19,713 nt of DNA from an uncultured Nitrososphaerota archaeon (GCA_964636085.1 CAZWPQ010000037.1:1-19713), one strand, 5' to 3'; counted from the stretch's first letter, positions 1 through 752 are shown. Notes: generated by a model not told the origin, from the sequence alone. A program made the numbers and translations.

Positions 1-752
1 TCACGGATGGGGTCGAGGTAAATACCTATGGCACGGATCCAACGGATCCAGACACGGACGATGATGGTATGCCTGATGGTTGGGAGGTGCAGTATGGTCT
101 AGATCCACTATCCGATGACTCCTCTGGAGACATTGATGGTGACCAACTGACAAACCTCGGCGAATATCAGAATGGCACGGATCCAACGGATCCAGACACT
201 GACGATGATGGTATGCCTGATGGTTGGGAGGTGCAGTATGGTCTAGATCCACTATCCGATGACTCCTCTGGAGACATTGATGGTGACCAACTGACAAACC
301 TCGGCGAATATCAGAATGGCACGGATCCAACGGATCCAGACACTGACGATGATGGCCTCACGGATGGGGTCGAGGTAAATACCTACGGCACGGATCCAAC
401 AGATCCGGACACGGACGATGATGGTATGCCTGATGGTTGGGAGGTTGAGTATGGTCTTGATCCTTTGTTGGATGATTCTGGTTTTGATAATGATTTTGAT
501 GGTTTGTCTAATTTTGAGGAGTATTATTATGGTACTGATCCTCTTGATGCTGATAGTGATGGTGATGGTTTTGAGGATGGATACGAAATATCCAGAGGCA
601 CCGACCCCCTCATCCCCACCGATCATCCGAGCGAGAGTTATTCTGGTTTTTCCTGGGTTTATTTGGTGTGTCTTGGGGCTTCTTGTGTTGGGATGGTTCT
701 TTCCTTGGTTTTGTTGTATTCTATGCTTCGTAGATCGGGTGTTTTTTGTTAG
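1..752 (+). CDS. Cell-surface protein, 5'-truncated: Ca-binding acidic DTDDDG (bacterial TSP3-like) repeats plus C-terminal membrane anchor
   Basis: The frame of ORF 69..752 is open back to the window edge (from nt 3: [23 protein letters not shown]). It has repeated [12 protein letters not shown] / DxDGDxLxNxxEY / GTDPxDPD motifs and ends in a hydrophobic segment ([25 protein letters not shown]) plus RR, with TAG at 750-752. Confidence 0.9.
28..355 (+). repeat. Intragenic 144-bp (48-aa) tandem repeat, ~2.3 near-identical copies, flanked by a 69-bp unit repeated at offset 357
   Basis: atggcacggatccaacggatccagacac starts at 28, 172 and 316. The sequence at 1..88 recurs at 358..445 with three synonymous changes. 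Confidence 0.95.
411..622 (+). repeat. Left arm of ~212-bp inverted repeat (partner 5973..6184)
   Basis: Manual reverse-complement comparison: 426..594 matches 6169..6001 exactly (169 bp). Over 411..622 the only mismatches are at 416, 425, 595 and 620. Confidence 0.95.

What the first reader, a model, noticed from the sequence alone, without database searches (positions are those of the whole stretch)
417..752. Abrupt blockwise switch between G/T-ending and A/C-ending codons
Seen: 54 consecutive codons (417..578) end in T or G, and the next 14 (579..620) all end in A or C. The tail to 752 returns almost wholly to T/G. The upstream repeats (1..416) encode similar peptides with mixed codons, so protein composition does not explain it. 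This is a keto/amino skew rather than a GC-content effect. Inference: either there is selection for mRNA or ssDNA pairing between GU-rich and AC-rich blocks (plausible in a thermophile), or a strand-specific mutational/conversion process acts on discrete tracts.
Basis: partly seen in the sequence, partly recalled or inferred. Interest (0 to 1): 0.7.

Follow-up and report, generated by a model that had tools for sequence, protein, structure and literature searches.

The report
One-strand G/T codon tracts (GRINS-like)
A stretch of an archaeal surface-protein gene has nearly every freely variable base pushed to G or T on one DNA strand, then briefly to A or C; this is a short archaeal form of the known but unexplained bacterial "GRINS" skew repeats, and this genome also shows the underlying one-strand mutation pattern in a dead transposon copy.

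Summary
Codons 417-578 (54) all end in G/T, 579-620 (14) all end in A/C, and 621-752 is 91% G/T. Given the protein and the genome's codon usage, the chance of the 54-run is 4e-14, and it is the longest such run in the genome.

It is not a local oddity. About 316 such tracts (2.4% of codons) occur in this MAG, and sampled relatives have them too. The skew is a property of the DNA strand:
- G/T tracts and A/C tracts are base-for-base complements.
- The skew runs on into non-coding DNA.
- Neighbouring genes on opposite strands are anticorrelated.

Paralogues differ by runs of same-direction transitions. One degenerate IS copy carries a 159-nt tract with 33% of A changed to G and 29% of C changed to T on one strand, at all codon positions.

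RNA pairing is not supported: the native fold is no better than recoded or shuffled controls.

The closest known thing is GRINS (PNAS 2021, bacteria, cause unknown). All its features are met except its 500-bp repeat-length rule; here a 261-nt block is repeated in inverted orientation at 5947-6207.

This scan has noted the same phenomenon before on other archaeal DNA. The biochemical cause remains open.

The parts
3..752 (+). 3' part of a surface-protein gene cut by the contig start: bacterial-type TSP3 calcium-binding repeats, then a linker, one hydrophobic C-terminal helix and a basic tail
   Evidence: ORF list. Pfam TSP3_bac E = 2.7e-34.
3..416 (+). Upstream TSP3 repeats with mixed third positions (K3 = 0.57; GC/TA skew +0.10/-0.16)
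   Evidence: Direct repeat family D1.
388..648 (+). Left arm of an inverted repeat (261 nt, 91% complementary; core 400-628 is 96% identical) shared with the convergent beta-helix gene. It carries the G/T run plus the A/C patch.
417..578 (+). G/T ('K') tract: 54 of 54 codons end in G/T (44 T, 10 G). All-site keto fraction 0.73. It encodes the last TSP3 cassette.
579..620 (+). A/C ('m') patch: 14 of 14 codons end in A/C (10 C, 4 A). It differs from G/T-type paralogues mainly by T>C (8) and G>A (1) at third positions.
621..752 (+). Second G/T tract over the linker, membrane anchor and stop codon (39 of 43 codons G/T-ending)
753..802 (.). Intergenic spacer with the same skew (keto fraction 0.74; GC/TA skew +0.50/+0.47)
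803..5812 (+). Giant Ig-like/beta-propeller surface-protein gene. Its third-position G/T fraction falls from about 0.85 at the 5' end to about 0.25 at the 3' end; the G/T domain that starts at 417 continues to about 1800.
5947..6207 (-). Right arm of the inverted repeat in the NosD/beta-helix surface-protein gene (5834-8818, -). It has the same G/T run (6017-6187) and A/C patch (5978-6016) in that gene's own reading direction.
6395..6634 (-). 80-codon A/C tract (K3 = 0.11) in the same beta-helix gene, about 200 nt upstream of its G/T cassette

Best explanation
The stretch is a short, GRINS-type skew element. In discrete tracts, one DNA strand has been driven towards G+T wherever selection on the protein leaves a base free. 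The 42-nt patch shows the mirror image, A+C, i.e. the same process on the other strand.

Shown:
- The bias belongs to the DNA strand, not to codons or to the mRNA.
- It is genome-wide in discrete tracts, with some kilobase gradients.
- It is enriched in multicopy and accessory DNA.
- The G/T-plus-A/C block of the finding is a cassette shared, nearly identical and inverted, between two different surface-protein genes.
- Copies of repeated DNA in this genome differ by runs of transitions that all go the same way on one strand (A<->G and C<->T together).

Inferred:
- The driver is a tract-limited, one-strand transition bias (A>G and C>T). It arises while one strand is exposed or resynthesised during recombination or repair.
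- Purifying selection removes most amino-acid-changing hits, so synonymous sites saturate.
- Gene conversion copies skewed cassettes between paralogues, which gives the razor-sharp borders.
- In the one unselected tract, the per-site rates for A>G and C>T were about equal. This fits G:T-mispairing repair synthesis (the tautomer/error-prone-polymerase idea of the GRINS authors) or an enzyme better than plain thermal deamination, which hits C far more than A (established chemistry, from memory).
- A self-reinforcing loop is possible, because RecA-family recombinases prefer GT-rich single strands. It is untested here.
For: Composition and scale:
- Third positions in G/T tracts are T .59, G .31, C .06, A .05. 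In A/C tracts they are A .59, C .30, G .07, T .04, an exact complement. Gly, Val and Trp rise in G/T tracts; Thr, Gln and Pro rise in A/C tracts.
- 316 tracts cover 2.36% of codons, against 0.06% after synonymous resampling.
- GC and TA skews correlate at r = +0.56 in tracts and -0.23 elsewhere.

DNA-level behaviour:
- Non-coding DNA after the stop codon keeps the skew: keto fraction .65/.60/.60 after G/T tracts and .40/.45/.46 after A/C tracts, against a .51 baseline. The spacer 753-802 is 0.74.
- Sense-strand K3 of neighbouring genes correlates at r = +0.23 on the same strand and -0.14 on opposite strands (-0.21 for convergent pairs).

Link to repeated DNA:
- Tract DNA has a paralogous DNA match 25% of the time against 6.7% for other coding DNA. 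Tract density is 6-7.5% of codons on contigs under 10 kb and 1.2% on contigs over 50 kb.
- The hosts are kinase-WD40, AAA/STAND, Big_7/TSP3 surface-protein, subtilase, Cas6 and IS genes.
- The finding's block is an inverted repeat, 388-648 against 5947-6207.

Direct evidence of the mutation pattern:
- Among 402 paralogous HSPs, same-direction transition runs of >=15 number 11, against 2.9 after label shuffling (maximum 7 in 200 shuffles).
- The IS copy on C77 differs from the C40 and C11 copies in one 159-nt tract by 15/46 A>G, 9/31 C>T, 1/36 G>A and 0/24 T changes. These fall at codon positions 1/2/3 = 12/6/9, and the copy has indels.
- A G003 outgroup copy supports the C77 state as derived at 14 sites against 8.

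Persistence and comparison:
- Tract positions are shared by same-genus orthologues: the GltB-like gene and the HerA-like gene. The last TSP3 cassette is G/T-type in G002, G003 and G004 too.
- All of this matches the published description of GRINS (PMC8256042).
Against: - The A/C patch and the coding tracts are about 90-100% converted at third positions while positions 1 and 2 are spared. They therefore cannot be single raw events. Recurrent hits within the same borders, or import by conversion, must be assumed.
- In the conserved GltB-like gene, G000-specific changes at positions 1 and 2 show no direction (17 keto gains against 15 losses in the G/T tract; 7 against 8 in the A/C tract). Mutation pressure on amino acids is not visible there.
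- At four-fold sites T outnumbers G by 3:1. Pure A>G plus C>T from an average ancestor would give about 1:1, so transversions or long equilibration also matter.
- Near-identical blocks are not more skewed than their own 200-nt flanks (0.130 against 0.164; genome mean 0.092). Conversion borders therefore do not generally delimit the skew.
- Sharing of tract positions by orthologues at 53-64% protein identity could also mean selection.
- Polarisation of the IS tract rests on one 70%-identical outgroup.
- This is an 83%-complete MAG, and no read-level data were available.
Confidence: 0.6

Rival explanations
1. Imported patches. The tracts evolved elsewhere, on a replicon with extreme strand asymmetry such as a rolling-circle or strand-displacement plasmid or virus at high temperature. 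They entered chromosomal genes by short-patch recombination, which gives the sharp borders.
For: Tracts are concentrated on small contigs, at contig ends and in accessory, mobile or multicopy genes. The G/T cassette sits as an island in the beta-helix gene. Whole small contigs show kilobase gradients (C62, C66).
Against: The IS tract differs from its sister copies almost only by one-direction transitions (24 of 27 changes), with none of the other differences expected from a diverged donor. Tracts also sit in single-copy conserved genes, at the same place in same-genus orthologues. No donor copy of the junction sequence was found in the genome or metagenome collections. This idea moves the origin of the skew elsewhere without explaining it.
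Confidence: 0.13
2. Transcription-associated asymmetry. The non-template strand, exposed in transcription bubbles or R-loops, accumulates C>T and A>G. G/T tracts would mark the 5' ends of sense transcripts and A/C tracts would mark antisense transcripts.
For: G/T tracts are enriched in the first tenth of ORFs (34 of 146) and A/C tracts in the last fifth (67 of 170). Genome-wide, K3 falls from 0.55 to 0.47 along genes (slope -0.064 +/- 0.007). The window's giant gene runs from 0.85 to 0.25 from 5' to 3'. The IS tract lies on the sense strand near the transposase start. Comparable asymmetries are known in E. coli and mammals (from memory).
Against: A/C tracts in the sense direction are as common as G/T tracts (170 against 146). 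Signs alternate within single genes. Opposite-strand neighbours are anticorrelated. EF-2 is G/T-type in one relative, A/C-type in another and neutral here. No transcript data exist for this organism.
Confidence: 0.12
3. Translational kinetics. Blocks of wobble-read NNT/NNG codons (slow) and Watson-Crick-read NNC/NNA codons (fast) are selected to pace translation for folding or membrane insertion.
For: The pattern is strongest at third positions. G/T tracts are commoner at gene starts, as in a ramp. Tract positions are kept in orthologues. In relative G024 the highly expressed EF-2 gene is almost wholly A/C-ending.
Against: The two codon sets are exact base complements. The skew continues in non-coding DNA. 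Opposite-strand neighbours are anticorrelated. The degenerate IS copy is hit at all codon positions. EF-2 is G/T-type in G009, so no fixed optimal set exists.
Confidence: 0.07
4. Selection for nucleic-acid pairing between GU-rich and AC-rich blocks.
For: G/T and A/C blocks lie next to each other and could in principle pair.
Against: There is no gain in folding energy over synonymous recodings or dinucleotide shuffles. If anything, the native sequence folds slightly less well than sequences recoded with genome usage. No Rfam match was found.
Confidence: 0.03
5. Assembly or sequencing artefact, such as damaged template DNA, channel drop-out or chimeric assembly.
For: The source is a MAG with 102 contigs. 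Tracts are commoner near contig ends. The MAG holds redundant contigs (C38/C55 and C73/C74).
Against: Reading frames stay open. The effect is concentrated at third positions, which damage or chemistry cannot know. The same phenomenon occurs in four other MAGs and in two single-contig genomes of the phylum. Orthologues share tract positions.
Confidence: 0.02

Closest known systems
[quoted passage not shown]
   Same: Both show intense GC and TA skews of the same sign (G+T against C+A). Sign changes are abrupt within a gene. The skew is strongest at third codon positions. Gly, Val, Cys and Trp rise on one side and Pro, Thr, His and Gln on the other. Both lie in duplicated DNA that undergoes gene conversion, often hit transposases, encode functional proteins, and have an unknown cause.
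   Different: The repeat here is 261 nt (229 nt at 96%), below the paper's 500-bp rule. The host is an archaeon; the paper does not mention archaea. The carriers are surface-protein cassettes and signalling or defence genes, not PKS modules. Many tracts here are single-copy, and some form kilobase gradients. This genome also adds a polarised, unselected example of the one-strand A>G plus C>T step.
Heavy/light-strand asymmetry of animal mitochondrial DNA (reviewed in PMC3269012; details from memory)
   Same: One strand is G+T-rich at synonymous sites. There are gradients in skew strength. The asymmetry is attributed to C>T and A>G on a strand left single-stranded.
   Different: The mitochondrial asymmetry covers a whole replicon with one sign and is tied to one replication mode. 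Here the tracts are 40-900 nt, of either sign, inside a chromosome with only about +/-2.6% skew over long contigs.
Kataegis and strand-coordinated mutation clusters from ssDNA at breaks or break-induced replication (e.g. PMC6786661, PMC8850194)
   Same: Both are clusters of substitutions that all hit one strand, over hundreds of bases, and are linked to recombination intermediates.
   Different: Kataegis is C-specific and driven by APOBEC in a TpC context. Here A>G is as frequent per site as C>T, and the pattern is an evolutionary steady state filtered by selection, not a somatic event.
Transcription-associated strand asymmetry (E. coli coding-strand C>T excess; G+T excess on mammalian sense strands; from memory)
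   Same: There is an excess of G+T on the sense strand near gene starts, and a weak genome-wide 5'-to-3' decline.
   Different: It cannot give A/C tracts in the sense direction or sign switches inside genes.

Membership tests
GRINS (operational definition of PMC8256042) | Duplicated region longer than 500 bp | tested here: not met
   The inverted-repeat arms 388-648 and 5947-6207 are 261 nt at 91%. The core 400-628 is 229 nt at 96%. Elsewhere in the genome four to five regions do pass all criteria: C73/C74, C59, C84/C88 and C11/C40, plus C38/C55, which is a 100% identical contig pair and probably an assembly duplicate.
GRINS (operational definition of PMC8256042) | More than 80% DNA identity to another region of the same locus or genome | tested here: met
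   96% over 227 nt to C37:5967-6193 on the minus strand.
GRINS (operational definition of PMC8256042) | Mean absolute GC skew and TA skew both above 0.15 | tested here: met
   417-578 is +0.61/+0.38, 579-620 is -0.44/-0.41, and the whole block 400-628 is +0.24/+0.21.
GRINS (descriptive features) | GC and TA skews are correlated and change sign abruptly | tested here: met
   r = +0.53 over window 1-6700. r = +0.56 in tracts against -0.23 in the rest of the genome. The switch at 578/579 is exact to the codon.
GRINS (descriptive features) | Skew is strongest at third codon positions, with a shift in amino-acid usage (Gly/Val/Cys/Trp against Pro/Thr/His/Gln) | tested here: met
   Third positions are 89% G/T or A/C in tracts. 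Gly, Val, Trp and Cys are up in G/T tracts; Thr, Gln and Pro are up in A/C tracts. His is not shifted.
GRINS (descriptive features) | Association with gene conversion between homologous regions | tested here: inconclusive
   The block is shared by two otherwise different genes, and tracts are 4-fold enriched in paralogous DNA. However, near-identical blocks are not more skewed than their own flanks.
Replication-associated (leading/lagging) strand skew | One sign over 10^5-10^6 bp, switching only at origin and terminus | tested here: not met
   Tracts are 13-302 codons and signs alternate within contigs and genes. Long contigs deviate by only about 0.026 from 0.5.
Translational ramp / rare-codon cluster | Confined to translated codons and explained by tRNA supply | tested here: not met
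   The skew continues in non-coding DNA. The two codon sets are base complements. The degenerate IS copy is hit at all codon positions.
Diversity-generating retroelement | A reverse transcriptase plus a template/variable repeat pair differing at adenines only | tested here: not met
   No PF00078 match in the 83%-complete genome. Differences include C>T as often per site as A>G.
Structured RNA element | Fold more stable than controls, or a match to a known family | tested here: not met
   z = +1.02 against dinucleotide shuffles. z = -0.5 to +1.9 against synonymous recodings. No Rfam match.

The most novel reading that the evidence does not exclude
Asgard and other archaea may have a tract-limited, strand-specific hypermutation step that changes A to G and C to T at similar per-site rates on the strand exposed or resynthesised during recombination. 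It would feed back on itself, because G/T-rich single strands are preferred recombinase substrates. It would thereby both recode and mobilise cassettes in surface, signalling and defence genes. This would be a prokaryotic counterpart of somatic hypermutation plus gene conversion, and the missing mechanism behind GRINS.
Probability: 0.22. Interest if true: 0.8.

Novelty: new variant of a known kind. Interest (0 to 1): 0.55.

Why it matters
GRINS were described in 2021 as elements that recode proteins and speed up their diversification, but their cause is unknown. The paper covers bacteria and two eukaryote groups only.

This genome adds three things:
- The same signature occurs in an archaeon, in cell-surface cassettes, kinases, STAND ATPases, Cas6 and IS elements. 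It also occurs as sub-500-bp and single-copy tracts that the published detection rule would miss.
- It supplies a rare unselected snapshot of the elementary step: about 30% of A and of C converted on one strand of a dead IS copy, with G and T untouched. This constrains the mechanism. Equal A and C rates argue against simple thermal cytosine deamination.
- It gives a practical warning. Such tracts distort codon-usage, HGT-detection and dN/dS analyses, and they break assemblies.

Tried and rejected
- RNA/ssDNA pairing of G/T with A/C blocks: rejected on fold energies and the absence of an Rfam match.
- Two-colour sequencing channel drop-out, or damaged template DNA: rejected, because A and C persist at codon positions 1 and 2 and frames stay open.
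- Break-resection geometry, with G/T always 5' of A/C at a switch: adjacent opposite-sign pairs within 150 nt were 3 K>m against 4 m>K (within 500 nt, 4 against 9), so there is no consistent polarity.
- Replication-type skew: rejected.
- Reverse-transcriptase route: no RT was found.
- A missing repair enzyme for deaminated bases: EndoV and UDG are present, and one ordinary CDA-fold deaminase is present. None is informative.
- Search for a close strain or a donor carrying the K/m junction 21-mer in metagenome and genome collections: no hits.
- Direction of amino-acid-changing differences in the GltB-like gene: no bias.
- Test of whether near-identical blocks are more skewed than their flanks: they are not.
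- Literature searches for keto skew, Njordarchaeales codon usage, strand-coordinated clusters in archaea, and local strand asymmetry in hyperthermophiles: no archaeal description.
- Pfam gave no family for the IS transposase.

Full report
**1. The observation**

The window is a whole contig (C37) of a 2.41-Mb, 102-contig MAG with GC 39%, 83% complete. Other notes of this scan call it a Njordarchaeales Asgard archaeon; I did not check that.

The finding lies in ORF 3..752 (+). This is the 3' part of a surface-protein gene with bacterial-type TSP3 repeats (Pfam E = 2.7e-34), a C-terminal hydrophobic helix and a basic tail.

In that frame:
- Codons 417-578 are 54 of 54 G/T-ending (44 T, 10 G).
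- Codons 579-620 are 14 of 14 A/C-ending.
- Codons 621-749 are 39 of 43 G/T-ending.
- The upstream repeats 3-416 are mixed (0.57).

Genome-wide, 50.5% of codons end in G/T. Given the peptide and genome codon usage, the 54-run has P = 4.4e-14 and the 14-run has P = 1.5e-4. Resampling synonymous codons for all 1604 long ORFs predicts 0.4 G/T runs and 0.6 A/C runs of 20 or more codons; 24 and 51 are observed. The 54-run is the longest in the genome.

**2. It is genome-wide and also occurs in relatives**

A three-state HMM on third positions finds 316 tracts: 146 G/T-type ("K") and 170 A/C-type ("m") in the coding sense. The median is 33 codons and the maximum 302. They cover 2.36% of codons, against 0.06% after resampling.

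The same analysis on samples of other genomes gave these tract fractions:

| Genome | Relation to G000 | Tract codons |
|---|---|---|
| G002 | same genus | 3.3% |
| G004 | same genus | 1.8% |
| G009 | same order | 1.4% |
| G014 | same phylum, single contig | 0.8% |
| G024 | same phylum, single contig | 1.4% |

Resampled controls for all these samples were 0.02-0.10%. As a control, 150 kb of E. coli K-12, including the ribosomal and EF operons, gives 0.3% and no run of 20 or more codons.

There are also kilobase gradients:
- The window's giant gene (746-5812) falls from about 0.85 to about 0.25 G/T-ending from 5' to 3'.
- Contig C62 goes from 0.99 to 0.29 across seven co-oriented genes.

**3. 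The skew is a property of the DNA strand**

(i) K tracts have third positions T .59, G .31, C .06, A .05. m tracts have A .59, C .30, G .07, T .04, the exact complement. Positions 1 and 2 and amino-acid usage shift the same way: Gly, Val and Trp rise in K tracts, and Thr, Gln and Pro rise in m tracts.

(ii) The skew continues after stop codons. The keto fraction is .65/.60/.60 after K tracts and .40/.45/.46 after m tracts, against a baseline of .51. The spacer 753-802 is 0.74 keto, like its flanks.

(iii) Sense-strand G/T usage of neighbouring genes correlates positively on the same strand (r = +0.23) and negatively on opposite strands (r = -0.14; convergent pairs -0.21).

(iv) GC and TA skews correlate at r = +0.56 in tracts and -0.23 elsewhere.

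Long contigs show only about +/-2.6% skew, so this is not ordinary replication skew.

**4. The RNA-pairing idea fails**

The native MFE of 417-620 and 417-749 is no lower than synonymous recodings at 37 or 80 C (z from -0.5 to +1.9). Against dinucleotide shuffles z = +1.02. No Rfam family matches.

**5. Link to repeated and recombining DNA**

- Tract DNA has a paralogous DNA match 25% of the time, against 6.7% for other coding DNA.
- Tract density is 6-7.5% of codons on contigs under 10 kb and 1.2% on contigs over 50 kb. 21% of tracts lie within 1 kb of a contig end, against 8% expected.
- Hosts are kinase-WD40, AAA/STAND ATPase, Big_7/TSP3 surface-protein, subtilase, Cas6 and IS genes, plus a few enzymes.

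The finding's K run and m patch together form the left arm (388-648) of a 261-nt inverted repeat. Its right arm (5947-6207) lies in the convergent NosD/beta-helix surface-protein gene. The core is 96% identical.

The last TSP3 cassette before the membrane anchor is G/T-type (K3 = 0.85-0.92) in at least five other G000 genes and in G002, G003 and G004. Upstream repeats are mixed.

One caveat applies. Near-identical blocks are in skew-rich neighbourhoods but are not more skewed than their own flanks (0.130 against 0.164; genome mean 0.092).

**6. Direct evidence for a one-strand transition process**

Among 402 paralogous DNA alignments, runs of 15 or more same-direction transitions occur 11 times. 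Label shuffling gives 2.9 on average, with a maximum of 7 in 200 shuffles.

The clearest case is an IS element with copies on C40, C11 and C77. In a 159-nt tract near the transposase start, at sites where the C40 and C11 copies agree, the C77 copy has on the sense strand:
- 15 of 46 A changed to G,
- 9 of 31 C changed to T,
- 2 A changed to T,
- 1 of 36 G changed to A,
- 0 of 24 T changed.

These changes are spread over codon positions 1/2/3 as 12/6/9. The C77 copy also has indels and is truncated. The 188 sites upstream of the tract carry 11 changes of mixed type. A 70%-identical copy from G003 supports the C77 state as derived at 14 sites, against 8 the other way.

Whichever branch changed, this is a sharply bounded tract in which only A/C (or only G/T) of one strand was converted, by transitions, without codon-position filtering.

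The 14-codon m patch differs from its K-type paralogues in C51, C22 and C2 mostly by third-position T>C (8) and G>A (1). It is C-rich (10 C, 4 A), as expected if a T-rich K-type ancestor was converted on the other strand. Positions 1 and 2 are spared.

**7. Persistence**

In a single-copy GltB-like gene (C51), an m tract is followed by a K tract. Same-genus orthologues at 62-64% protein identity show a weaker version at the same place. In a HerA-like gene, the K tract coincides with one in the G002 orthologue at 53% identity.

By contrast, EF-2 is K-type in G009 (0.76), m-type in G024 (0.20) and neutral in G000 (0.48). This argues against a fixed translationally optimal codon set.

G000-specific changes at positions 1 and 2 in the GltB-like gene are not directional.

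**8. What it is**

A lead from earlier notes of this scan pointed to GRINS, which I then read (PMC8256042). GRINS are duplicated regions with these features:
- intense, correlated GC and TA skews,
- abrupt sign changes (150 nt mostly G+T and 150 nt mostly C+A within 1 kb),
- the strongest effect at third positions,
- Gly/Val/Cys/Trp against Pro/Thr/His/Gln shifts,
- a link to gene conversion,
- frequent overlap with transposases,
- unknown cause.

The authors propose C>T and A>G errors on one strand, through tautomeric mispairing by an error-prone polymerase. The paper does not mention archaea, and I found no archaeal report in the library.

Everything matches except the operational rule of more than 500 bp, since the repeat here is 261 nt. 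Four to five other regions of this genome pass all criteria; one of them, C38/C55, is probably an assembly duplicate. I therefore file the finding as a short, archaeal variant of a known kind, not as a GRINS in the strict sense.

**9. Mechanism, and how sure**

Shown: the strand-level nature of the skew, its genome-wide tracts, cassette sharing, and same-direction transition runs that include one unselected tract.

Inferred: recurrent one-strand A>G and C>T change in tracts exposed or resynthesised during recombination or repair; purifying selection that leaves synonymous sites saturated; and gene conversion that moves cassettes and makes the borders sharp.

Equal per-site A>G and C>T rates (33% and 29%) fit G:T-mispairing synthesis or an enzyme better than spontaneous deamination, which favours C strongly (from memory). 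RecA-family proteins prefer GT-rich single strands (PMC3763553, abstract as listed; Rad51 from memory), so a self-reinforcing loop is conceivable but untested.

Three points remain open:
- why T exceeds G by 3:1 at four-fold sites,
- why borders persist between species,
- why some tracts form gradients.

Rivals are imported patches from skewed replicons, transcription-associated asymmetry (supported by a weak 5'-to-3' decline in K3), and translational pacing. None explains the complement symmetry, the sign switches and the IS tract together.

No RT was found. EndoV, UDG and one CDA-fold deaminase are present.

**10. Verdict**

The phenomenon is known in bacteria (GRINS) and is still unexplained. 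This scan has noted the same thing before on other archaeal DNA.

The added value here is an Asgard example with sub-threshold and single-copy tracts, and an unselected snapshot of the mutational step.

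Noticed in passing
L173:790-1000 (G000 contig C77), compared with L171:1681-2101 (C40) and L172:101-520 (C11): A degenerate IS copy carries a 159-nt tract with about 30% of A changed to G and about 30% of C changed to T on the transposase-sense strand. G and T are untouched, and all codon positions are hit. The element has terminal repeats of about 76 nt that also occur on C67 and C90. Pfam finds no family for its 627-aa transposase-like ORF.
   Followed up: yes
L130:2748-5006 (G009) and L108:3468-5669 (G024): The EF-2 gene is almost wholly G/T-ending in one relative (K3 = 0.76, with a run of 78 codons). 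In another it is almost wholly A/C-ending (K3 = 0.20, with an abrupt return to 0.5 for the last fifth). In G000 it is neutral (C34:11933-14182, K3 = 0.48).
   Followed up: partly
L025 (G000 C51:8753-10162, minus strand): A single-copy glutamate-synthase-like gene has a 150-codon A/C tract followed by a 140-codon G/T tract. Same-genus orthologues show a weaker form at the same place.
   Followed up: yes
window 746-5812 (+): The 1688-aa Ig-like/propeller surface-protein gene shows a smooth 5'-to-3' gradient in third-position G/T use, from about 0.85 to about 0.25. Contigs C62 and C66 show similar gradients.
   Followed up: partly
window 6395-6634 (-) and 14245-14292 (+): There are further A/C tracts in the window: 80 codons (K3 = 0.11) in the beta-helix gene and a 16-codon run in the gene at 13861-15462.
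   Followed up: partly
whole genome G000: There is a weak but significant genome-wide decline of G/T-ending codons along genes (0.55 in the first tenth, 0.47 in the last; slope -0.064 +/- 0.007). It is weaker in G014 (-0.019).
   Followed up: partly
G000 contigs C38/C55 and C73/C74: The contig pairs are 100% (8.6 kb) and 99.8% (5.0 kb) identical. This suggests redundant or strain-variant contigs in the MAG. Scaffold gaps of 100 N fall inside several surface-protein genes.
   Followed up: no
G000 C56:6205-9211 compared with C78:3-3009: A 3-kb paralogous pair at 88% identity differs by 84% transitions (305 of 362), a very high transition share.
   Followed up: no
window 388-648 and 5947-6207: An in-frame inverted repeat brackets 5.3 kb that holds one membrane-anchor tail and the giant adhesin gene. 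Whether the segment inverts was not tested.
   Followed up: no
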